This document shows, piece by piece, positions 9,695-62,298 of a stretch of 64,000 nucleotides of DNA. Origin of the DNA: Yuukianura sp. NJ FZ-2021. Its lineage: Eukaryota. The stretch is from the NCBI GenBank assembly GCA_046563655.1, contig CM102290.1, positions 682,001 through 746,000 of the forward strand. Reading direction: 5' to 3'. How positions within the stretch are numbered: the stretch's first letter is position 1; each line of letters begins with the position of its first letter. A program made the translations under genes and the position numbers. Below the pieces are notes generated by a model, which was not told where the DNA came from, made no database searches, and saw only the letters and a list, made by a program, of their open reading frames with translations.

Positions 9695-11076
9695 GACTCG
9701 CTGTCACTTTTAACAAATCGCTGCACTTTTTGATTAACAAAGGTGGCTCAATTGGAGAACAGTGGTGACAATGAGGTCATCGGCAGGATAGGCCGTTGCC
9801 CTTTGCCTGTGTGGTCGGAGACAGTAGAGATGACGAAGGGAAGTGTGAAAAGAAGGGGAAGTCAAAGTGGAAAGTGCAAGCCAAGGAAATGACGACTCCG
9901 ACTTCCATCGATGGGAACATTCGTGAAGCTCAGCTTTTTGTTGTCTTCTCTTGTCCTCGTTTGTTTTCAAAGGCAAAACTTATGAACAACAGCTTCTGAT
10001 TCACGTCCATTTTCAGCCAACTTCAATTCAATCTGGTTAAGTCGATTCAGAACTTCAATCTTTAGAAAAAAAATAAGCAAATCAAATCAAACAACCCACT
10101 AGCATGAATACTAGCGAATCACATCTCAGTTATTTATATTTTTCGACCTTGAAAATAAAGTGATCACACATTTTATACTTTATTTGTATAATTAATTACT
10201 CACAATCATTGACGTAAAGTACACTGAAAGCAACATTTCTGCTACATTTAGCATTATGTAAGCTGGTAATTAAAGCCTATTTAAAGTCGTTTGTTTGAAG
10301 AGATTTTTTATGCAATTTACAAATCTACATACCACCGTATGGTCATTTGCTAACTTTAAAAATTTTTTCCTGACATTTATTGAGTTAAAACTACAAAAAA
10401 GCGGGAGGGTAAAATTCTTTCAGCAAGGATGACTTTGGAACACTTTCAAAGGTGTCGTAAACAATTTTCAACTTTATTTGATTTAAAAAATGTTTAGTGC
10501 CATATTTCTGACTTATTATGACATTTTATTATTGGTAGTAGTAACCGTATTGTTTTGTCGACGAAAACTGATTAACAAGGCACAAATTGTTGGGATGTCC
10601 GTGACGGCCAATAGGTTTTGGAGACTTTACGATGGACTGAATGTGTTTTGAACGCAGTAAGCGGCAGCAGCGGGAAGTTTTCTAGAGGCGCCAAATGTAA
10701 TATTTTGAATTTCACAACTTTTTTTTTTTACAAAAGGAGAAGGATTAAAAAAACGGTACGGGCAAGGACTGCAATAGCAAAAGCGCGGTAGACTGTACCG
10801 CAGCAGGGAGCTTTTAGTCGCAGGCATGCATGCATGTGAATGGTGTTGCTGTCGGATTTATTTACTTGAATAATTTCTTCGTCCATTTATCATTCAGTTG
10901 AACTTTTAAATACTTTAGAAACTGCGACTGGAGAGACCACTCTGGAGTTACGAAGGACCATCGATTCATATCACCTAGTCGCCCTAGTTTAATTGTAAGT
11001 TAGTATTAACAAAAACGTTGAAGTCATTTAAGTACATGTTTTTTATTAATCTTTAGGCATTTTATCATTTGGAGAG

Positions 11077-14000
11077 ATGTCAGGGAAAGGAAAGGGGTCA
11101 AGCGCAAATGATCAAGTGATACAGGAACGCCGGTTGCGCCCTGCCTACGATTTTCTGGACAGAGGAAATAATAAACGTGTTATCCAAGAAACTGATCGTT
11201 TATTGAAGAAGCAGCCGGACTTTCAATGTGCTAAAGCCCTCAAAGCTTTAGCACTTTTACGCAGTGGACATGTAGCAGAATGTAAAACCATTGTAGATGC
11301 TCTTGTGGCTGAAGTTCCAACGGAAGACAATACAATCCAGGCACTCACAATTTGCTTTCGAGAACTGGGTGAACCCAAAATGGTATGTACAATCTTGGAG
11401 AATGCAAGCAAAGTGGACAAGTCCGAAGAGATGCTTTCTTCCTGTTTCATGGCTCATGTTCGTGTATCGGACTTTCAAAAACAGTATCAAGTGGCTCTAA
11501 ACCTCTACAAGTTACATCCTAAGTCTCCATATTTTACATGGGCGGTGATGAGTCTTTTTGTTAAGGCCGAATTTGATCCAGATCCATCGTCTCGGATAAG
11601 TCTACCACTCGCAGAAAAAATGATGGGAAAATTTTTTGAGGAGAAGAATCATATCGACTCTGAGCATGAAATCACTCTTCATATTCTTCTTCTCCAGAGA
11701 CTAAAGAACTACAAGAAGATATTGACAATTATTGACAAGCTGGCAGACTACAAGACTCCAGTTCTTACCGGGCTCTACCATAAATTGAAAGGAGAATGTA
11801 TTCAAATGACGGAAGACTCAAAAACTACGGCAGCATACCTCGAGGATACAATACTGAAAAATTTAGGAGAGTGGTCCTACTACGAAAGTTATATCAAGCA
11901 TGTTGGACTGTCGGATCACACCAGAGCTCTAGAATTTTTAGATTCATTGGACAAGTTCCTTCCTGGGCCGCCAGTCACTTCTCGTGCCATTCTTTTGGCT
12001 CCACTTCATCTCTTCAGCTTCTTGGTCAAAAACAACTTTACTGAAGTCTTCGACCCACTCGGGTATTTTCGGAAGTATCTTTTCTACTATGGTCGGTTGC
12101 CGTCGTACTTTGCCGATATTGAGTCATTTCTCGGTTCTGCAACCGATCCGATAATGCGGCACAGAATACTGATGGTCGTCCAGGACGATTTGACTAAGCA
12201 TAGGGAAGAATTTAAGGTTAGTGGCTATCTAATATGTGGCGAAGTATGTCGTTTATGTACCGTTCTGCACAGAAGTAGTTACCGGGTTCTGAAAAGACCG
12301 CCACTGAAACTTCCTCGAACAAAAGCAGTTTCCTTGGCGGTATTTTCAAAAGTCAGGAACTACTTCTGTGCAGAACGATAATACTAAGTTTCTATCTGTT
12401 TTTTTTAGGTTTATGCAATGCTACAACCTCAGCATGCGAACGATACACAGGGTCTAGTTAACTCCTTTTTGACTGACCGATACTTTGAGTCTGTTTGGCT
12501 GACAGAAAAGAGTAATAGGCAACAACAAGACTCAACTGTAATGTCCAATGTCATTTATTACGTCACTCAATATCTGAAAGTTGCTGAAGAACAACCAGAA
12601 CTCCGACTCAAAGAGGATCCATCCGATTTCTTTATCAACATTGCTTGCTTGACACTAATTGACAAGTTCTGGTCATTGGACTCCGACTGGACGTGGAAGT
12701 TAACTCCTCCTGACCTTGTAGATTATCGCTTTGCTCCTCCTGGATATGTCAACCCGAATGAACCCACTGCCAAATTCACAAACGTTTCTCATTCAGAATC
12801 GGACGAAGTAAAAACCGAACTCAAGGACTCAACTGCATGTGATCAACTTATCAACGGAGGCATATCTATTCTGAACATAGAAAATGAACCACCATTTGTT
12901 CCAAATCAACGAGACGTGGCTCCTCTCTTAGTCCTGTCGCTTCTACACTACTGCTTACATAAATCACCCAAAAATTATCAAACTCGTCTTCTGCTCGGGA
13001 AAATGTACATGCGTTGCGGAGCTGTTGCTGCTGGAACGACAGTTTTGGAACCACTGGATTTCAAGCATCTGATGCTCATGTCCACGAGCTACTTGTATAC
13101 TTTCAAACTCATTGCTAGTGCCAACTACGAAGAAGCCTTTCGCTCATTGACGTCCATCGAGCTGTTCCTGTCAACATTTGAAAAGGAGGTATAAAGCTAC
13201 TAAAATCTTGTCATGTCACCTTGTTCAATCTTCTTGATCGTATTTTTATTTAGGGAATGGAGCATGTTTTGTCTGCTTACAAATACGGATCGTGGGAAAA
13301 AATCTTAGAATTTATTAAATTCCATGATCACTTACTCAAATCTTTACTTCGTCCCTTAGTCAACGTTGAGCGGATGCTGCTGGAGTACAATACTGAGGGT
13401 GCAACTGGCCATTTTTCTCCATATCCTAAGACTCAGCAGGTAAAGCATTCAAATTTGGACTTTTGTTAAAAATTTAGTCATTCCTAACTACGACGTAGTT
13501 AAATTATTAATCTTATTTCGTTGGTATGATTTGTTTAGGTGACACGGAAAATGGAAATTGAACCTGAAATACTCAATAATTTGAATCAACTTACGGACAG
13601 CAGAGATTTTGAATTAATTGACACTTACGTTGTACGACCAAAGAAGGAACATTGGAAACAAAAGTCATTTGAAGCAGAGAAATTGAAACTCCGAGTGCGA
13701 TACTTGTTGCTGACCTTACTAAATAACGCCAGTCTTATGTCAGAGCGCGCAAAGGCTCAAGAGCCCTACGACGAACAACTGGCCAAAATGGATACATTTT
13801 TAAACCTAATCGAAGAAGCAATGGAAGAAGACACTTCAGGATTAGAAATGAATGATGTAAGTGCCATTTTGGAACTGGAAAGTACATAATGCTTAAAGGT
13901 TAATTCAACGTCATTTGATGTTTTAAGGCTACTATTGATGTCATGTGGCCATCCGAGATTTCGCAATACGTAAAAGGACCATGCTTGAAGTATTTGGTCG

Positions 14001-15358: not shown

Positions 15359-15556
15359 GGGCGAAGTAAGGATTAACGACCGTCTGTGTACCCACGAAGT
15401 GTCGCCACTCCGGCCGTCTTGTGGCAACAATAGGCGACTACACTATGGTGGTTACTTTTGTTGCCACTCTAACCTGAGTTAAGGTGGCAACATAAGTAGC
15501 CGTAGAGTGTAGCCACCGAGTGGCTACAGTGACGGTCGTTAAACCTTACCCCAACT
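15359..15556. mobile_element. MITE family A copy 3
   Basis: GTAAGGATTAACGACCGTC ... GACGGTCGTTAAACCTTAC with GTGGCAAC subrepeats. Confidence 0.8.
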
Positions 15557-24136: not shown

Positions 24137-26762
<2,626 letters not shown>

Positions 26763-35836: not shown

Positions 35837-37829
35837 TTGTGGACTAAGAATAGGTATACTAAAGTAAGTGCTGTTAACAAAACCATTGTTCTCTCCGTTC
35901 TTATCTACTAAACAGGTGAAACACGCTCTTTCAAGTACGTTCTTTGAGTGCGTCCATAACGTTTAATTTTGATTTTGTGTATCGTCCTCTCCCCAGGTCG
36001 AGAGGTTCAGTCCAAACCTAAATTTAGTCGGGAATTCCAACTCTTTCAAACAAAAATTCTTTTCAATTTTGAAAAAGTTTGCGTCAATCAGGCAAAGAAA
36101 ACTTCTTTTGACTTTCACAAAAGTTTGCATCAAATGTTGCTGACGTGCGGCACTAAAATCGTGGAAGTCTATTTTATATAAGTTTGTCTTTAGAAATTTT
36201 TCACAAAAGAACTGGAAATCTTGGGATAAAAATTAAACAAAATTTGACAAAGTTTGTTTACTCAGAACGAATTAAAAAGAGAAGTAAATGAGCACAAAGG
36301 CTTTTTGTTTTACTTTCAAGGAGAAAAATGTACTAAAAATGTTTATAATACAAATGACTAAAGAATACTAACAAAAAGTACTAAAAGTTTTCAGAATTGC
36401 TTTCACGTGTATTCTTCTCAGGCTGATTATCATCCGATTACTTTTGGCCTTAAGAACAAAAAAAATGCTATCCTTAAAAAATTTTTTTAGACTTGGGAAA
36501 ATTTCTGTTTTTTTTTTTCATTCAAAACTTATATGTTAAAACTCTACAAAATTTAACAGTTGAGCTTTAACGCTTCGGTTAACAAAATGATTGCAGTTTA
36601 GCATGACTTATTATAACGTGGTAAAAGCGCTTACTTCGCAAAAAATTTCCCGTTTTGCACTTCTTCTGTCGCAGTTTCCAAAAGTACTAAACTATGAATC
36701 TAGTTTGCAAATTTTATTCATACGTTTTATGTTTACGGTTATGTTTTCACATTATATTTTTAGAACATCAAATTTCTCCAATCTGTCCAAACGACCTTCA
36801 TATCCATTTTGATACTTTATGCTCAACGTAGTCTTTTTTTGAAAACAGAAAAGATGCATCATCACACGACTGTTTTTGGTAGTTTGCACATGCGACGTGT
36901 GGTTTTGAGTGAAGGAAGGCCTGGGAGAAAGGTGCTTTCAGCATGCTTTCTCCAAATGACACGTCAGGGAGCCCCTTCGTCCAGGGACTGGATCAGCCAG
37001 CGCTTAGTCATCCACCGCCTCTGCTTCATCATACTCTTATTCATCACAGCACCAGCACACAGCACTTCCTTTTTACTAATTCTACCACTGGAAATATTGG
37101 CACTAACACTCACACTCACCATTATTCAATACAACTCACAGTTCAGTGCCAACTACTTTGCTCAACCACAAAAACAACCCGCAGTTTGCATACTTTTTAG
37201 TTGCAATTTGACATTTAGACAGTTTTAGTTCCAATTTGATTCTAAAGTAACTTCAGCTAATCGTGTTTCAAATTGTCCTATCAAAGTGTGCATGAAGTTA
37301 TGGAGTGAAAATAAAATTGGCCAAATTTGGTAAAATTTTAAGTTAACTTGCGGAGACAAGAAACCAATCAACAATTTCATCACGTAAGAATTTTTTCCAA
37401 ATTCCCTTAATTTTTTTATGTTTCATAGTTTTGAGTTTTGAGTAAAACAAAAAAGGTGAGTTTAGACTAATGTTAGGGCGGTGGATTTTGAACGACCACT
37501 TTTTCAGAATGTTTTTTAGAAATGTTATTTTTTTTTTAATTTTAATTTTGAATTTGCAGTTTGTTCTAAAAAGTCATTTAGGGAACAGAAACAAAGATAA
37601 TTGTGAAATGACTAATTTGAAATAATTGGAAATTACTAGGAGCATAATGAGGTTAATGAAATTGGGATTGAAGCTGTTTATGGCCATGTCTCACGGAACT
37701 GATCATGGCGCTTCGCACTACGTTAACATCGCTTCCAAACACGAAAACTTGGTTCCAACCGCCTCGAATCTTCTTCAACCGCTGAAACAGTAATCAGCAG
37801 TTTCAGGAGGAGACAAGTTCTAGCCCAAA

Positions 37830-39938
37830 ATGGCTCGTAAGAGGTACGAAACTGCATTTATTCCGTCGACAACTACACAACTACCGTCATCATCCCAGTA
37901 TCCAGATGTAGACTCCCTTCTGTTGTCAATTGACTGCATCACGCTTGGTCCCGGTGACATGGAACGTCGACGGCGTTCAAGTGGACGCCGCGGCGGTGCG
38001 ACTGGACACCACCGCTGGCGTTCTAGAAGCATGACACCGCAGGAACCGGCCACTACTGACTCTATTAGTCGCACTTCTACTAATACTACTGGACCATCCA
38101 TATCATCCGCCTCAGCAGCTGCTCCAGCGAACGCTCCAGCGATTCGTCATCCACGAGCTCCTTCAATCGACAGTGTCAGTTGGAGCAGCGACAAGGAACA
38201 GCAGGGTAGCACTCAAAATATACGTACTTACTTTCTCAATTCTTCATTGAAGACAATAGCCCCTCGGGATCAGTCTAGAAAACAGAGTCGAAATTTTGAA
38301 AATTTTGAAAAATTTGAAAATTTGGAAACAGTGGATTTTGATGGTGGCCAAAAGTCAAAGGTTACCAGTGCTCCACTGTCCCTGTCAGAACCTCTACGTC
38401 CAAAACACTTTCTACTCAAAAGTTACGTATCAATTCAGAGTAGCAGTGGGTGTAGTACTAACACTAGTTCACCAGTTCCAGCAGAACTTCAACTGAGACA
38501 CAAAGGTCACCAGAGGTCAATCATGTCCGGTTTAAAACCAAAACGAAGTGGTCAAGCTAACCTTGTCAAGGTCACCTCGACGAGTTCTCTGGAGTCAATT
38601 GACTCAGGACGAAGCGAAGATTCCAAAATATTGGACAAGCAAAGTCAAACTGTACAGCTTCCGCCAAATTCCAAACTTCTGTCACCCATTTCTGATAAAA
38701 GTCCAATTGAATCTACCACAATGACCTCGGCTGAAAAGGAGAGGTCAGAGGTCACGGAAGAGTTGCGTGGCGAGGTCAAATCTCTCTTGGCAACCGCTGA
38801 ACAACTAACAAACCTTCCATGGGAAATGCCCAAGTTGAAGCGGAAATTGGCTCTTCTAGTAGATTCAGGCATTTCCCTTGACACGGGTAGCAGTAGTCGA
38901 GAGGCAGAATGCTATTCATGGAGTGACCTCAAAGGTCACACAGGTCAATTCTGTGAAAATCCACAATTTGAGGGCCGTCGAACTACTCTTGGATTGGAAT
39001 TTCCGGCGAAAGATGAAAGTCAAGTGACAGCAACAACCCAAGGTTTGTAAATAGTTTTTTTTCTTTAACAGGTTAGGCAATAAGGCGTATTTATCTTTTC
39101 CTTTTCCAAATTTCAAAAATTAAAACCCATATCGGCAACTCTCGTTCCCCGCGATATTTTTCCTCTGCACTTTTTTTCTCTTCATTTCGAACGTTCCGGT
39201 TGCTCCAACCTTTTAAATTTTAGAACTTTAAATTTTTGCAAAAACTTTTAAATTTTTGAACAAAAAAAGTGATAAACAAGTTCTGGCGAAAAATGTTGGT
39301 AGAAATTTTTCCGGAAAAGCGACTTATTGCCTAACCTGTTAAAGGGAAACTATTTCGTTGCTATAGGAATCTTGGCAACAACCAATGAACTTATGGATCC
39401 ACTTCCGCTGACAGAAGCTCCACCTCCGCCGCCTCCTGAAGCCTCACAACCCGTGACCTTGTCCAAACCGGATAGATTTAAAATGAAGTTGGATTTTGGG
39501 GAGAGGTCACGTGCTGCAGAATGTGACCTGGTCAAGGTCAATGTTCATCTAGAAAAACAAGATTGGTTTCATGGAGCCATCACAAGGATTGAAGCTGAGG
39601 AAATCCTGAGACTTAGGAAAGCTGGGTCCTTTCTTGTGCGCAACTGTGAAAGTTCAGTTTTCAATCGCTACTCACTTAGTCTAAAGTAAGTTTTCAAAAA
39701 AAAAAATTCAAAATTCAAAATTTTTATATTCTTTTTAAAACTCTCCAGAAGCTCCCGCGGTTTCATCCATGTCCGAATCGAGTCAAAGTTAGACTCTGGC
39801 AAATTTTTGCTTGGCGCAGAAGCAGAAGAATTTGACTGCGTGCCATCTCTGGTGCTTCACTTCATGTCACATCGTTTGCCCATCAAGGGAGCTGAGCACG
39901 TCCTACTCAAGTACCCCGTCATAACGAATCTGCTTTAA
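37830..39938 (+). CDS. SH2-domain adaptor of the Shb/Shd/She/Shf type, about 573 aa; exons 37830-39042, 39367-39685, 39749-39938 (start uncertain)
   Basis: C-terminal SH2: LEKQDWFHGAITRIEAE...FLVRNCES...YSLSLKSSRGFIHVRI...LPIKGAEHVLLKYPV; Ser-rich disordered N-terminus; 1722 nt in frame. Confidence 0.88.
39039..39374. mobile_element. CAAGG-MITE (family C) forming the first coding intron (39043-39366) of the SH2 gene
   Basis: CAAGGTTTGT...CTTTAACAGGTTAGGCAATAAG / CTTATTGCCTAACCTGTTAAAG...GGAATCTTG; GCAACAACC repeated at 39030-39038 and 39375-39383. Confidence 0.88.
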
Positions 39939-46345: not shown

Positions 46346-46552
46346 CAAGGTTCGTCAACAAAAAGAAAACTTTTTCTACACCGGGTTATCCAATAACTCC
46401 AAGTTTTTTGTTTGAAAGTAGTCTGTCTTCCTATAGCAATTTTTTGCATATAATCTAAATGGGATTGGTGTTGTTTGAAGCAAATTTTTGAAAACCCAGA
46501 GTTATTGGACAACCTGTTGTAGGAAACACAATTCGGTTGTCAAGGAACCTTG
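46346..46552. mobile_element. CAAGG-MITE (family C)
   Basis: CAAGGTTCGT...TGTCAAGGAACCTTG; flanks ATAATTGT / ATATTTGT (7/8). Confidence 0.85.
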
Positions 46553-48076: not shown

Positions 48077-48346
48077 CAAGGTTTCTTGACAACAAAAAGT
48101 TAATTTTTTTTAACAGGTTGGGTACTACCTCGCTTCTTGACAAAAACGAAAATACCAAAAATTAGTTACCAATTTAGTACAGATCCACAAAATTTGTACC
48201 AATTCGTATGCAAAATTTAAAAAAAAATTGGCTGAATTGTTATGACTAAGATGCCCCGAAATGAAAAGAACTTTTTGTTTTGCAAAATCGAAAAGCAGGA
48301 GGTATTATCCAACCTGTTAAAGAAAATCAGAAGTCAACACACCTTG
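48077..48346. mobile_element. CAAGG-MITE (family C, long subfamily)
   Basis: CAAGGTTTCTTGACAAC...AACAGGTTGGGTACTACCTCGC ... CCAACCTGTTAAAG...ACCTTG; flanks GAACCGAC / GAACTGAC (7/8). Confidence 0.85.
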
Positions 48347-50269: not shown

Positions 50270-50545
50270 CAAGGATCCTTGACAACGGAAAATAAATTTT
50301 CTTCAACAGGTTGGGTACTACCTCGCTTGTTCACAAGAAAAAAACGAAAAAAAAAACAACATCAAGAATTGGAACGAATTTTAGTACCAATCCAAAAAAA
50401 ATTGTACCAATTCGTAAGCAAAATTTTAAAAATTCGGATTCGGAAAACTGCGATGCCCTGAAAGTAAGAGATTTTTTTTTGCGAAATCAAAGAAAGAAGA
50501 CATATTACCCAACCTGTTAAAGACAATCAAAGTTAACAAACCTTG
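50270..50545. mobile_element. CAAGG-MITE (family C, long subfamily)
   Basis: Colinear with the 48077 copy; perfect 8-bp TSD GCCATGTC at 50262-50269 and 50546-50553. Confidence 0.9.
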
Positions 50546-51216: not shown

Positions 51217-54200
51217 TTACTGTTCTTCGTCTGTCAATGGCTCATAGTTTGGATGGGTTTTGGCTGAAGGTCGCGAGTCTGCCGCACTTCCCCCGGTGGG
51301 TGACGCGTCCTTGTCCCGTCCACCTTCAGCCCCGCCTGACTCATCAATCACCATTGGAATCGGACTCTCTGTTCCTGATCTTCCTCGTCCAAGGTCATCC
51401 TGAAACCAAGTCAAACACTTTAGAACATATCATCATGCGGAGTTGTCATAGTTTCAATAGTTTTACCTTATCTGACTGTCGCTGATTTTCTGAATGTGGA
51501 TCATGGGAGGTAAGAGGGAGACTACTGGCTGACGATCCACTTGGAGGAGATGCCCTAGCACTTCCGCTTGATTTGGCCGTCGTTCCAGCCTGCGAGGTGA
51601 CAGGAAGAGGGAGGGCAGGCGGCGGTGAGGTCAAGTCCGTCCCTTGCTCTTCCCCTGCTTTATCCTCCTTGTTCTCCGTTCTCATCACTTCCATTATCCT
51701 GTTCTTAACATAGTCAAGAGGGGAGATGCCCTCTCGTGGTTTGTTTTTGTTCGGATCCAAGGTCACCGGTTCCCTCAACTCAGTCGCCGATTCACCGGAA
51801 CTGTAACAGTTAGCATATGACATTGAATGCTTCGTGGAGGTTGTTGGATAGGGACAGAATAGGAAGCAGCACTACGGTTTACACTACAAGAGATCAGAGG
51901 TTGGCACAGGGCTCAACCCAGAGTAAGTTCCAGCACTAACTTTTAAGTAAAACGTTCAGTTACTCTTAGTTTTATTATTCACTTTGAAGGACGACTGAGA
52001 TCAACTCTAGCTGAGTCTCTCATCATCTCATAAAAGCTCTTTCAAATAGTTATTTTTCGTTTCTTTTTGTTTATAATCAAACAATCAGCCTTTACCTTAA
52101 CTTTTTATACTGAGTAAAAGTTTTAAAAAAAACGAATGCATTGTTATTAGCGTGTTGCTTGGAGGTCAAATCATATTTTGTCGTCAAAAATTTAAAAAAA
52201 TAAAACAAAAAAGAAGATGAACGTTTTCGTCTTGAGTTGAATTAAAAAAATCAGGAAATGTGGAGAGGAACCAAAAGAAAAATGAAAAAAGAAAACCAAA
52301 AGAAAAAATGCGTTGCTTGCTAAGAAAAAAAAAGTCAAAAATAAAAATCTCACTAGCTGAAGTTGGACTCTTTGGTAGGTGCTGACGGAGGGCGGGAGTG
52401 TTGTTGTTGTTGTTGCTGATGATGTTGCTGTTGTTGTTGTTGATGTTGTTGCTGTTGATCAACTTGAACAACACGGATAATATGTCTCTCATCAGACATA
52501 TGATGAACTTGCTGTTGTTGTTGCTCCTTTTCATGCTGCAAAGCTCGTCGTAGTTTCCAGCTAATGTAAGGACCAACATCTTCTTGAGTCTTTGGATGCG
52601 ACGAAATATACTGTTGCTGCTGCTGCTGTTGGATTTGATGGGGCTGTGACACCACTGGCATGGACACTTTCTGAGCGCTGCTCGTCGTTGGATTTGAGTG
52701 TCCCATTGATGAACCTTTCCGAGAAGCATAATCTTTGGAGATTATCAAGTCAATATGATCACCCCAAGTCCCACCTACGTCATAAATCCCAACCAACATC
52801 ACACATTAAGCGACTATCCCAACAACGCATGCTCTCTCATAGAGACACGACATCTAAAGCAAAACTTTTGCTTTTCTTCACGTTTTCATAGAAAAAAGTT
52901 ACTTTCACTTAAAAAACTACGCCGGGTTTTTTCAAAATTAGGTTACGAGCGGCAGAGATGATGTTCCTCTCGCACGTAACCAAACTAGTACTGTGACTGG
53001 GAAAAGGTCAGCATGCGCGTGTGATAGAGCTTCTAAGTGTTTAAGAAACTTACTTCGTACAGCATGTCAGAAACATATTCGCCACTAATACGTTTACAGT
53101 GAGTTTCGACATTGAAAACGAAATTAGAACGACGAAACTGTTCTCTATTCTGACATGCTGTACTTAATGCGAAGGAAGCCAAACACAACAGGCGTAACAC
53201 TATGTCATAATTTTTATTACCTTGAGGATTCCGGTGGTCCAGGGCGTGTCCTTCGTCCATTCGCATATCCTCAGCATGGTGTTGCTGCTGGTGATGTTGC
53301 GGAGGAGGTGGATGTGGCGGTCTCTCCATTTGTGTGAGTCGATTTGGGGATAAGTGAGACTGTGCCTGTTGGTGCGGTGGTTGAACACATCGTTGAAAGG
53401 AGGCAAAGAGCCGATCCCCAGTTCTGGACGAAGGGATTGGAGACTGGCGGTCATGTACTGAGGGCTGATTGATTTGATGCGTAATAATAGCATCGATAAG
53501 TGAGGCAGCAGTTAGTGTCGCATCCTGGGCTCCATCTCGCACATACCGTGCCTCAGCTTCCTTTCGGTTTCTAATTTACAAAAAAAAAATCACCTTTGAA
53601 CAATTAGTTTCTGGAATTTCACTGTTATGGAACATACTACTCCTAGCAACCTAACCTTGCGAAAACAGTGGAGTTTTTCTACCGAGCAAAAATCAACGTT
53701 TTTGCAAAAATCTCACATCGCCCCAACACCATTCCAAATTCTGTGAACAATAAAAAAAAGGTAAATAACTAAAACCCTATAAAATGTTTAAAACAAATTT
53801 AAAGATGAATTTTAAAAAAGCATCAAGCGTACATAATTGACTTTTCAGTTTTTTAAAATGTCATTTCTTAAATTAATTTGAAACATTTTATACGTTGGTA
53901 ATTATATTGTTCACAGAATTTGGAATGGCGTTGGGGCGATGTGAGATTTTTGCAAAAACGTTGATTTTTTCGCTAATTGCTCGGTAGAAAAACTCCACTG
54001 TTTTCGCAAGGTTAGGTTGCTAGGAGTAGTACCGTGAGGGATCGTGCATATTTTGAATCATAGACGGCTGATGACTTGGTCCGCGTAAGAGTTGAGCCTG
54101 TTGATGGGGTTGAATGTTCAAACGACTTCGTTCCATATCCACCATACTTTTACCTAGACCTTCCCGAACTACATCCACTGAATTACAATAAATATAGTTT

Positions 54201-60740: not shown

Positions 60741-62298
60741 ATGAAGTCAGGTCATTCACTCCAGGCCATTGACCTCTCACTCAAGCACCACCACTACGTT
60801 CCTCCACCAAGTACTCCTCCACATTCAAGTACCCCTCCCCCTACAGTGCTTTTACTCAAACCGGAACCCAGACCAGCATGGTCCATCCTGTGGTACAGAA
60901 GTATTTGGCCAAAAATACCTCTACCTAGCCCCAACTGCAGTTTGTCACCTCAGTTGACCTTTGACGTAAGTTGTCCTCCAAGGTCAAACTTCAACGTTCA
61001 TACTGGCAGCATTCTAGTACAACATGAAGACTCAGATCAAGAGCAGCTCCAGCGTCAGCCTTCCACGGTTGACACAGAACCCATTGGAGTTGACCTTAGC
61101 GTCAGGTAACGTAAAAACTACACTAAAATCAAGGTTCCTTGACACCCGAATTGTAATTCCTACAACAGGTTGTCCGATAACTCTGGGTTCCCAAAAAATT
61201 TATTTCAAACAAATTTCTGCACCAATCCCAGTTATATTACATGCGAAAGGCAGATTTCTTTTTTCAAACAAACTTTGAAACTTCCAGTTATTGGACAACT
61301 GGTGTAGAAAAAGTTTTTTTTTTGTTTACGAACCTTGAGTAAAATCGTCCTAACAAAAATTATTTAAAAATAAATCAACTTTATAAAAAAAAGTGTAAAA
61401 AGTGGGTTCATTCACTTCCCACTTTTTTCGAAATCTCATTTCAATCTTTTAACCTTCTTGACATGAATAATTCACAAGTAAATAAATATCCGCTTCTCAA
61501 GTGTCGAAGTTTAGCATTTTAAAAATAACGACGTCTGACATCATACCGCCAAATTCCAAACTTTATTTAGTAGCTATTGTTACTGGTGAAATTGCGAAAT
61601 TTGATCCACCCAGATTATGTTCTGTGTATCACAAAACCTACAAACATTTACCAACTCCATTCGTTTTCCTTTTGTCAACAATTCTCAAGTTAATGATGTC
61701 AACACCTTACATATTTCCTTATGTTATACTATTTCAAATTGTCCAAAGTAATCAAATTTCATTCATTTCCAGGAAAGACGAAACGGAGGAACTTGACCCA
61801 ACCGACGTCAAATCCACAAAACCCGCAGCAACCATTGTAGATGTCGCCACTTGCGACGGCCCAGTCCATTTTCAGCGCATTTCCAACCCCAACTTTGCTC
61901 TCACCGTGGAACACCGTGAACGAACCGTGAAACACCGTGAACGCACTGTGGAGCACCGCGATCAAACTACTTCCGGTGACCCACCACTCGTGTCACCTCC
62001 ATCAAAAACCTACCTATGTATCTACTGTAACCAAAGTTTCAAAAGTCTTTTCTGTTACCAAAAACATAAAAAAAGACATTTGAATCCCGTGTCAGTCGAC
62101 ATTCCGCCAAATCCGAATCCCGACCTTACTCACTCTCTGTCCCAAAATACTTTACGAACAACGGATCTCAACGTCCAGTTCTTCCCATGCAAAAAATGTG
62201 GATCCAAATTCCCTAGTTACTACTTTGTACATAAACACAAGAGGATTTGCGACATGACGGGAGCAAGAGAGGAGGGGCAACCAGTGGAGCAAGTCTAA
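60741..62298 (+). CDS. Two-finger zinc-finger protein, about 296 aa, nested antisense in an NCoR intron; exons 60741-61105, 61773-62298 (start uncertain)
   Basis: CIYCNQSFKSLFCYQKHKKRH (C2H2) and CKKCGSKFPSYYFVHKHKRIC (C2HC-like); AG|GTAACG donor and TTTCCAG acceptor join in frame (891 nt); AIDLS and GVDLS motifs. Confidence 0.8.
61130..61337. mobile_element. CAAGG-MITE (family C) in the zinc-finger gene intron
   Basis: CAAGGTTCCTTGACA...ACGAACCTTG; flanks ACTAAAAT / AGTAAAAT (7/8). Confidence 0.85.
61903..61965 (+). repeat. Coding 21-bp tandem repeat x3 (TVEHRER TVKHRER TVEHRDQ)
   Basis: ACCGTGGAACACCGTGAACGA / ACCGTGAAACACCGTGAACGC / ACTGTGGAGCACCGCGATCAA. Confidence 0.85.

What the first reader, a model, noticed from the sequence alone, without database searches (positions are those of the whole stretch)
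39030..39383. Transposon turned intron: introner-like MITE in the SH2 coding sequence with an in-frame scar
Seen: a family C element (39039-39374) is flanked by duplicated GCAACAACC. The donor CAAG|GTTTGT lies 4 nt inside its left end and the acceptor GCTATAG|GAATCTTG 8 nt inside its right end, so the intron (39043-39366) is entirely element. The mRNA keeps 4+8+9=21 nt: ...VT-ATT-QGIL-ATT-NELM..., with the duplication visible in the protein. Unspliced, the frame stops at 39048-39050 and the SH2 domain is lost. Sister copies have 8-bp TSDs, which would frameshift; here 9 bp (or 8+1) restores the frame. Established: DNA-transposon introners are known from algae and other eukaryotes. Inference: intron gain from this P/hAT-like family in an arthropod, with both splice sites supplied by the element ends; I know of no description of this family doing so.
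Basis: partly seen in the sequence, partly recalled or inferred. Interest (0 to 1): 0.85.

Follow-up and report, generated by a model that had tools for sequence, protein, structure and literature searches.

The report
Transposon insertion that probably became an intron
A small hAT-like transposon sits in the middle of a coding exon of an arthropod signalling-adaptor gene and carries signals that would let it be spliced out in frame, a known way of gaining introns that is still unproven here because no RNA data exist.

Summary
A 336-bp element with inverted ends (39039-39374) lies between two abutting copies of GCAACAACC. GT at 39043 and AG at 39365-66 lie 4 and 8 nt inside its ends. They define a 324-nt intron and leave 21 nt in frame. 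Unspliced, the frame stops at 39048-50.

Ten of ten fetched ORF-called relatives run through this region without a break. The DNA of three relatives shows one uninterrupted exon and the next intron at the same place and phase. The interruption is therefore lineage-specific. The best named relatives are springtail and insect SH2 adapter proteins, including Drosophila heavyweight, so "arthropod" is supported.

Splicing itself could not be tested. The "introner family" reading is weak:
- Only 1 of 6 window copies sits in a coding exon.
- The four sister copies with a recognisable duplication have 8 bp, which would leave a frameshifting 20 nt.

The kind is already in print: Aureococcus introners that carry both splice sites and add 12 bp, copepod introners, and the maize hAT element Ds1 spliced from exons. 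Verdict: a real insertion, probably a single-locus intron gain, and a new member of a known kind. Interest is moderate.

The parts
37830..39042 (+). Exon A of the SH2-adaptor gene, from the conserved MARKRYETAF start to the predicted donor. It is the first part of what is one long exon in relatives.
   Evidence: Open frame 37824..39050. 44-45% identity to P0001 and P0002 over 90% of its length. No Pfam family.
39030..39038 (.). Left copy of the 9-bp duplication GCAACAACC. It is coding (Ala-Thr-Thr).
   Evidence: family D5.
39039..39374 (+). 336-bp non-autonomous hAT-like element (MITE), termini CAAGG...TCTTG. Its donor-like end is at the left, so its sense matches the gene strand.
   Evidence: The right boundary is confirmed by contigs of sister copies that stop matching at 39374/39375.
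39043..39366 (+). Predicted 324-nt GT-AG intron lying wholly inside the element. Splicing is not shown.
   Evidence: Best of the two in-frame, stop-free pairs inside the element. The spliced frame is open for 573 residues.
39043..39048 (+). Candidate 5' splice site AAG|GTTTGT. The in-frame TAA at 39048-50 follows if the element is not spliced.
   Evidence: A GTTYGT-type end is present in 5 of 6 window copies.
39058..39092 (.). Left inverted-repeat arm.
   Evidence: I1. It forms part of the long hairpin in the RNA fold.
39315..39349 (.). Right inverted-repeat arm.
   Evidence: (I1).
39331..39335 (+). CTAAC, a candidate branch point 32 nt upstream of the AG, inside the right arm.
   Evidence: Read. 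Its role is inferred.
39352..39366 (+). Candidate 3' splice site, a pyrimidine-rich stretch ending TATAG|G.
   Evidence: An AG 8 nt from the terminus occurs in all 6 window copies and in a sister copy seen in run X4 (table 7).
39375..39383 (.). Right copy of the 9-bp duplication. It is coding.
39367..39685 (+). Exon B: 8 nt of element, the duplication, a Pro-rich linker, the conserved KPDR.KMKLDF motif and the first half of the SH2 domain.
   Evidence: Pfam SH2 E = 2.1e-9. 67% identity to P0001.
39686..39748 (+). Ancestral 63-nt intron (AA|GTAAGT...CCAG), at the same place and phase in three relatives.
39749..39938 (+). Exon C, the second half of the SH2 domain and the stop codon.
   Evidence: It matches the C-termini of Orchesella P0010 and P0011.

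Best explanation
A roughly 336-bp non-autonomous DNA transposon of hAT type inserted into the long coding exon of the orthologue of the SHB-family adapter (Drosophila heavyweight). The host is a springtail-like arthropod, and the insertion made a 9-bp target duplication.

The element lies in the orientation where its conserved asymmetric ends read AAG|GTTTGT on the left and CTAAC...TATAG|G on the right. The spliceosome most likely removes 39043-39366 as an ordinary U2-type intron.

The mRNA would keep 4 nt and 8 nt of element plus the extra duplication copy. That is 21 nt, or seven residues, in a length-variable linker upstream of the SH2 domain, so the adaptor stays functional.

Shown: the insertion, its duplication, its absence from relatives, the in-frame sites, and the intact SH2 exons downstream. 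Inferred: that splicing happens and uses these sites.

The event looks like a lucky single-locus case, not the product of a transposon adapted to make introns. The family's usual 8-bp duplication would leave a frameshifting 20 nt.
For: - Structure and frame.
- The restored empty site reopens a frame of at least 401 codons across the junction. The other five copies give 45-65 codons, or 184 codons that lie almost wholly to the left of the site (180 to the left, only 4 beyond it).
- Relatives: all 10 metagenome-derived ORF-called proteins fetched (P0001-P0009, P0012) pass through the equivalent linker unbroken, and 9 of the 10 run on to SLSLK. In DNA loci L001-L003 the exon has 0 stops and is followed by the same phase-2 GTAAG intron.
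- The site lies in a linker where relatives differ by indels of tens of residues, so seven extra residues should be tolerated.
- Signals: the donor matches the consensus at -3 to +2 and at +5/+6. The acceptor has a pyrimidine-rich run and a CTAAC 32 nt upstream. The other in-frame pair has a much weaker donor context and a purine-rich acceptor.
- Heuristically placed window introns are 63-615 nt long and include GTTAGT donors.
- All 6 window copies have one end that gives an AG 8 nt in. In 5 of them (not 26288-26506) the other end is GTTYGT-type, so the signals are inherited family features.
- The RNA folds into a long hairpin that brings the two sites together (-88.9 kcal/mol, z = -5.1).
- The right junction also stands in a run from a second study whose single-copy pieces differ at 3 of 849 positions, so this is not a private assembly feature.
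Against: - There is no transcript evidence of any kind.
- The donor has T at +3 and +4, which is suboptimal by recalled consensus.
- The candidate branch point sits inside the strong hairpin, which could hinder its recognition.
- Being in frame has roughly a 1-in-3 chance; 2 of 8 internal pairs qualify.
- The perfect duplication and intact downstream exons fit a recent, still undecayed null insertion equally well.
- The nearest relatives are only 44-45% identical in exon A, so the time of insertion is not bracketed.
- Run X2 holds a second, diverged version of exon A at about a quarter of the depth. Whether that version carries the element is unknown.
Confidence: 0.55

Rival explanations
1. 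This is a recent disruptive insertion, a null or hypomorphic allele. The element is not removed, or only inefficiently, translation stops at 39048-50 and the SH2 domain is lost. The gene looks intact only because too little time has passed for decay.
For: The 9/9 duplication is perfect. No RNA evidence exists. The donor is suboptimal. The family's normal 8-bp duplication gives no in-frame outcome, so the family shows no adaptation to exons.
Against: The same right junction stands in contigs of a second study at about 0.35% divergence. The right terminus carries a change relative to all five sister copies (TCTTG against CCTTG), which suggests some time since insertion. The gene is conserved from springtails to flies, so a fixed null would be costly.
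Confidence: 0.25
2. The element is removed, but through other sites. Candidates are the second internal in-frame pair (TTT|GTAAAT at 39047 with the AG before 39320, keeping 72 nt) or exonic donors such as 39019 or 39024 with AGs in or beyond the element, perhaps as several isoforms as for maize Ds1.
For: Fifteen stop-free in-frame donor/acceptor combinations exist within the stretch scanned. Exonic Ds1 is reported to be alternatively spliced through several donors and acceptors near its ends (passages of PMC5432752 citing Wessler 1991).
Against: The alternative donors lack the AG| exon context or G at +5. The alternative internal acceptor is purine-rich.
Confidence: 0.12
3. The two halves are expressed separately. 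The element or its flank supplies a promoter, and an SH2-only product starts at the ATG in exon B (39393-95), while exon A yields a truncated protein.
For: An in-frame ATG follows the duplication. Nothing tested here supports it directly.
Against: No promoter evidence. The conserved KPDR.KMKLDF motif and SH2 domain are fused to the N-terminal motifs in every relative.
Confidence: 0.05
4. This is an assembly artefact: a repeat wrongly placed into the exon.
For: The element belongs to an abundant repeat family. Summed contig depth over its ends is about 80-210 times that of flanking bins.
Against: Independent contigs bridge both junctions in runs X1, X2 and X5 (table 8). The precise 9-bp duplication is the signature of real transposition.
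Confidence: 0.02

Closest known systems
Introners that carry both splice sites, e.g. the Aureococcus family in Gozashti et al. 2022 (PMC9860276, Fig. 2F legend, passages read)
   Same: A short DNA-transposon-like element with an 8-bp duplication forms the whole intron and supplies both splice sites. Splicing leaves a few element bases plus the duplication, which adds codons relative to an orthologue without it.
   Different: In Aureococcus the residue is 4+8 = 12 nt, in frame by design, and the family makes many introns. Here the normal residue would be 20 nt, only the 9-bp variant is in frame, only 1 of 6 window copies is exonic, and splicing is unproven.
Maize Ds1, a roughly 400-bp non-autonomous hAT element (passages of PMC5432752 citing Wessler 1991; the 1991 paper itself is not held)
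   Same: A small hAT-type element with an 8-bp duplication that, inserted in an exon, provides donor and acceptor sites within about 35 bp of its termini and is spliced from the pre-mRNA.
   Different: Ds1 cases are mutant alleles in a plant with several alternative, mostly imperfect splice products. Here the insertion is in an animal, may be fixed, and one pair of sites predicts a clean in-frame product.
Copepod introner families, the only arthropod cases in Gozashti et al. 2022 (supplementary table rows labelled Arthropoda)
   Same: Arthropod hosts and intron-forming repeat families, some about 275-330 nt long.
   Different: Those are aquatic copepod genomes with many genic copies, and their TSD and TIR status is marked '?'. 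Here TSD and TIR are clear but only one locus is known. The two springtails in that survey, Folsomia candida and Orchesella cincta, read 0 in every column of that table (the header was not read), against 1 for the copepod Eurytemora carolleeae.
Noncanonical MITE-derived introns of the tunicate Fritillaria borealis and of euglenids (review PMC11282704, passages read)
   Same: Introns derived from inverted-repeat elements whose paired ends bring the intron ends together.
   Different: Those have noncanonical junctions. This one has canonical GT-AG with a branch-point motif.

Membership tests
Introner (transposon family that generates spliceosomal introns) | The element makes up the whole intron, and the splice sites come from the element and/or its target duplication | tested here: met
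   At sequence level only. GT is 4 nt and AG 8 nt inside the element ends, and the result is in frame.
Introner (transposon family that generates spliceosomal introns) | The intron is actually removed from mRNA | not testable with these tools
   No RNA run is listed for this organism. No protein of this species is in the collection.
Introner (transposon family that generates spliceosomal introns) | Many related copies serve as introns in different genes | tested here: not met
   In this window, 1 of 6 copies interrupts an open frame. One lies antisense inside a larger coronin intron. Four restore no long frame. A genome-wide test was not possible because no genome is held.
Introner (transposon family that generates spliceosomal introns) | Insertion plus splicing normally leaves the reading frame intact | tested here: not met
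   With the family's 8-bp duplication (4 of 6 copies) the residue would be 4+8+8 = 20 nt. Only this 9-bp case gives 21.
Introner (transposon family that generates spliceosomal introns) | The intron is absent at the orthologous site in relatives | tested here: met
   10 of 10 fetched ORF-called relatives and 3 of 3 DNA loci are uninterrupted. The relatives are distant.
hAT superfamily, non-autonomous element (MITE) | 8-bp target-site duplication (PMC3942097 passage) | tested here: met
   Four sister copies have 8 bp, one perfect and three with one mismatch. This copy has 9 bp. P elements also make 8 bp (recalled), so this does not exclude P.
hAT superfamily, non-autonomous element (MITE) | Terminal inverted repeats with the hAT terminal motif | tested here: inconclusive
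   Imperfect inverted ends of about 45-50 nt are shared by 12 aligned ends. CAAGG fits the YARNG motif, which is recalled and not taken from a call. Autonomous hATs have 10-25-bp repeats.
hAT superfamily, non-autonomous element (MITE) | A related autonomous element encoding a hAT transposase | not testable with these tools
   No genome is held. None of the 35 window ORFs scanned hit a transposase family.
SHB/SHD/SHE/SHF-heavyweight SH2 adapter family (host gene) | C-terminal SH2 domain after a long disordered region, with named orthologues | tested here: met
   Pfam SH2. Named hits are SH2 domain-containing adapter protein F [Orchesella cincta], adapter protein D in flies and beetles, and heavyweight isoform C [Drosophila melanogaster].

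The most novel reading that the evidence does not exclude
The family is a true introner of a terrestrial hexapod. Its conserved polar ends (AAG|GTTYGT ... AG|GAACCTTG in 5 of 6 window copies; the sixth keeps only the AG end) would act as splice sites genome-wide. Its many copies would include numerous recently gained introns, with rare 9-bp duplications or alternative sites rescuing the frame. That would be the first introner with clear TSDs and TIRs in a land animal, in a group (springtails) that read 0 in the 2022 survey table.
Probability: 0.1. Interest if true: 0.8.

Novelty: new member of a known kind. Interest (0 to 1): 0.45.

Why it matters
Well-documented intron gains in animals are rare. 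The 2022 survey of 3,325 genomes found introners in only two animal groups.

This locus preserves the whole history of a candidate gain: the target duplication, the inverted repeats, the splice signals in the element ends, and an ancestral uninterrupted exon in relatives. If RNA confirms splicing, it would be a clean animal example of a cut-and-paste transposon becoming an intron and adding seven residues to a protein. It would also show that a 9-bp duplication in place of the family's usual 8 bp decides whether such an insertion can survive in a coding exon.

Without RNA it remains a well-formed hypothesis about one locus.

Tried and rejected
- RNA evidence: the look-up of sequencing runs listed no RNA holder, only DNA runs of two studies. 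This says nothing about expression.
- Empty-site allele: none of the 15 joints listed by read laying skips 39039-39383, but 15 more joints were not shown and all runs are contigs. No conclusion is drawn. Depth differences between contigs were too noisy to tell whether the second exon-A version in X2 carries the element.
- Own genome: not held, so no genome-wide census of the family was possible.
- Family in metagenomes: a pattern for the family's right end found 0 matches in metagenome contigs. The element has no copy in the relatives' loci L001-L003.
I then used single exons.
- Fragment search: exon B against proteins of 57-184 residues gave nothing at E <= 1e-10, so no transcript-derived fragments of this species were found.
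- Protein atlas: exon A gave only scores of 0.80 or less, which is uninformative.
- Earlier scan notes: nothing relevant.
- Age of the insertion: dating it from divergence to sister copies was rejected. Cut-and-paste elements need not leave a twin, so divergence among copies does not date this insertion.
- Coronin copy: the copy at 26288-26506 was considered as a second element-made intron and rejected. The likely donor (GCG|GTAAAT) and acceptor (TTTTGCAG|) lie outside the element, and the element is antisense.
- Window intron survey: it used a consensus-weighted heuristic, so it gives only a rough picture of local intron sizes and donors, not a calibrated score.
- Wessler 1991 is not held.
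- Supplements: the main data supplement of PMC9860276 was read only in part (cut when stored). Its SI Appendix tables on TSDs and TIRs were not seen.

Full report
**What is in the sequence.**

GCAACAACC occurs at 39030-39038 and again at 39375-39383. The two copies abut a 336-bp element (39039-39374). Its internal arms, 39058-39092 and 39315-39349, are 35 nt long and 86% complementary. The 21-nt core of those arms occurs once on each strand here, against none expected in 100 shuffles.

The gene frame (codons starting at positions divisible by 3) is open from 37824 and ends at TAA 39048-50, ten bases into the element. It reopens at 39303 and runs to 39686.

Removing 39043-39366 joins the two parts in frame. 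That is 324 nt, from AAG|GTTTGT to TATAG|G. Together with the next exon, the result is a 573-residue product. Seven extra residues come from 4 nt and 8 nt of element plus the second duplication copy.

**Is the element real, and where does it end?**

Five more copies with CAAGG...CCTTG termini lie in the window:
- 50270-50545 has a perfect 8-bp duplication.
- 46346-46552, 48077-48346 and 61130-61337 each have an 8-bp duplication with one mismatch.
- 26288-26506 has a decayed duplication.

I laid public contigs on the region. Summed contig depth over the element's ends is about 80-210 times that over flanking bins. This is a rough sign of many related ends, not a copy count. Many sister-copy contigs stop matching at 39374/39375, which fixes the right boundary independently. 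One sister copy in run X4 ends ...GCTATAGGAACCTTG, so the AG 8 nt from the end is a family feature.

Contigs bridge both junctions of this insertion:
- X1 record 1 covers 37800-39343.
- X1 record 8, X2 record 16 and X5 record 31 cross the right junction.

X5 comes from a second study. Its single-copy pieces differ from the window at 3 of 849 positions. The insertion is therefore not an assembly artefact and not confined to one data set.

**A family-level detail.**

I aligned the 12 ends of the 6 copies.
- Every copy has one end that reads CT at positions 9-10. On the other strand this gives AG|GAACCTTG, 8 nt from the terminus.
- In 5 of the 6, the opposite end reads CAAG|GTTYGT. The exception is the decayed copy at 26288-26506.

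The ends therefore have a conserved polarity, and the splice-like signals are inherited, not created at this locus. The SH2 copy lies with that polarity on the gene's strand. Its right terminus reads TCTTG where all the other copies read CCTTG.

**Superfamily.**

An 8-bp duplication and short inverted termini are the hAT hallmarks (passage of PMC3942097). CAAGG fits the hAT terminal motif as I recall it. P elements also make 8-bp duplications (recalled). No transposase was available to test, so "hAT-like" is the appropriate label.

**Host gene and organism.**

Exon B carries the first half of an SH2 domain (Pfam E = 2.1e-9; generic SH2 hits in the PDB).

Searching exon B against longer proteins gave named relatives:
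- SH2 domain-containing adapter protein F [Orchesella cincta]
- proteins of Orchesella dallaii and Allacma fusca, which are springtails
- beetle and fly proteins, including heavyweight isoform C [Drosophila melanogaster]

The best PDB matches of the window's ribosomal protein L6 exon are two entries that I recall as Drosophila ribosomes. "Arthropod" is supported, and a springtail-like hexapod is the best guess.

The rest of the window is ordinary gene-dense animal DNA. It holds PP1, Rad9, a NatB subunit, coronin, RPL6, a Ras-family GTPase, a short-chain dehydrogenase and a Myb/SANT protein.

**Orthologue test.**

Exon A found nine relatives at 36-46% identity.
- All nine pass through the region equivalent to the insertion site as one open frame.
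- Eight run from MARKRYETAF to SLSLK.
- A tenth protein, P0012, does the same.

For three relatives I fetched the DNA. In each, the long exon has no stop and is followed by AA|GTAAG at the same codon phase as window 39686. The second SH2 exon follows after a short intron in L001 and L002; it was not found within the 600 bases translated downstream in L003.

The ancestral gene therefore had one long exon here, and the interruption at 39043-39366 is lineage-specific.

There are limits. The nearest relatives are only 44-45% identical in exon A. The insertion site lies in a linker between the conserved LALLVDSGISLD and KPDR.KMKLDF motifs, where relatives differ by large indels. The predicted empty-site peptide cannot be checked for that reason. 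The same variability does suggest that seven added residues would be tolerated.

**Would it be spliced?**

No RNA data could be found, so the judgement rests on sequence alone.

Inside the element there are 2 candidate donors and 4 candidate acceptors. Two of the 8 pairs are in frame and stop-free. Frame preservation alone is therefore about what chance gives.
- The proposed pair is clearly the better one. It has an AAG| exon context with G and T at +5/+6, a pyrimidine-rich run before TATAG, and a CTAAC 32 nt upstream of the AG.
- The other pair has a TTT| exon context and a purine-rich acceptor.

Heuristically placed introns elsewhere in the window are 63-615 nt long and include GTTAGT donors. 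These were chosen with a consensus-weighted score and give only a rough guide.

As RNA, the element folds into a long hairpin (-88.9 kcal/mol, z = -5.1). The hairpin brings the two sites within a few nucleotides of its base, but it also buries the candidate branch point.

**Introner or lucky accident?**

Restoring the empty site reopens a frame of at least 401 codons only for the SH2 copy. The other five copies give 45-65 codons or, for the coronin copy, a frame that ends 4 codons past the site. The coronin copy lies antisense inside a larger intron whose likely splice sites are outside the element.

With the family's usual 8-bp duplication, the same splice sites would leave 20 nt and shift the frame. 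Only the 9-bp duplication of this copy gives 21. A 9-bp staggered cut is the simplest reading, since 8 bp plus one inserted base needs a further coincidence.

So the family does not look adapted to making introns. This locus is best read as a rare insertion that happened to be tolerable.

**Comparison with what is known.**

- Gozashti et al. 2022 (PMC9860276; abstract, passages and part of the data supplement read) found introners in 175 of 3,325 genomes, and among animals in only two groups.
- Their supplement lists copepod-labelled (Arthropoda) families with TSD and TIR status marked "?". The springtails Folsomia candida and Orchesella cincta read 0 in all four columns of another of its tables, where the copepod Eurytemora carolleeae reads 1. 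I did not read the column headers.
- Their Fig. 2F legend describes an Aureococcus introner that carries both splice sites and adds 12 bp (4 + an 8-bp TSD), or four residues. That is the same design as here, but in frame by construction.
- Maize Ds1, a small hAT element, provides donors and acceptors within about 35 bp of its termini when it sits in an exon (passages of PMC5432752 citing Wessler 1991).
- My searches for transposon-made introns in springtails, and for hAT or MITE intron gain more generally, listed no paper on this family or on such introns in springtails.

**Verdict.**

This is a genuine, lineage-specific hAT-like insertion in a formerly continuous coding exon. It has credible, inherited, in-frame splice signals, but no proof of splicing and no sign of a specialised intron-making family. 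It is a new member of a known kind and of moderate interest until RNA or population data are available.

Noticed in passing
window 38491-38671 and 38912-39030 (run X2): A second version of exon A is present in run X2 only, at about a quarter of the depth. It has 13 substitutions plus deletions of 3, 1 and 2 nt (6 in all, so in frame) in one piece, and 4 substitutions in another. It could be a diverged allele, a paralogue or a second species in the sample. Whether it carries the element is unknown.
   Followed up: partly
window 26288-26506: A family copy lies antisense inside the last intron of a coronin gene. The likely donor GCG|GTAAAT is near 26274 and the acceptor TTTTGCAG| near 26577, both outside the element.
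   Followed up: yes
window 15366-15549 and 2413-2963: Another inverted-repeat family has termini that begin GGTAAGGATTAACGACCGTC. This resembles a strong 5' splice site (G|GTAAGG) at the element end.
   Followed up: no
window 12258-12380: A near-palindrome with 54-nt arms (83% complementary, 15 nt apart) fills most of an intron of the NatB-subunit gene, between open frames 11050-12378 and 12409-13191.
   Followed up: partly
window 53635-54031: A nested inverted repeat has a perfect 55-nt outer arm pair and a 68-nt inner pair at 97%. It looks like a very young MITE, just beyond the open frame 53036-53575 (minus strand).
   Followed up: no
P0009: One relative's open frame leaves the SH2 domain right after WFHG. 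All the others run on to SLSLK. This may be a lineage-specific intron or a contig problem at that point.
   Followed up: no
window 39374/39375 (table 7): A good third to over half of the sister-copy contigs that break here match one base further (G at 39375): 16 of 43 in X1, 22 of 48 in X2, 4 of 7 in X4 and 15 of 26 in X5. That is more than base composition predicts and hints at a G or purine preference at the first duplicated base.
   Followed up: partly
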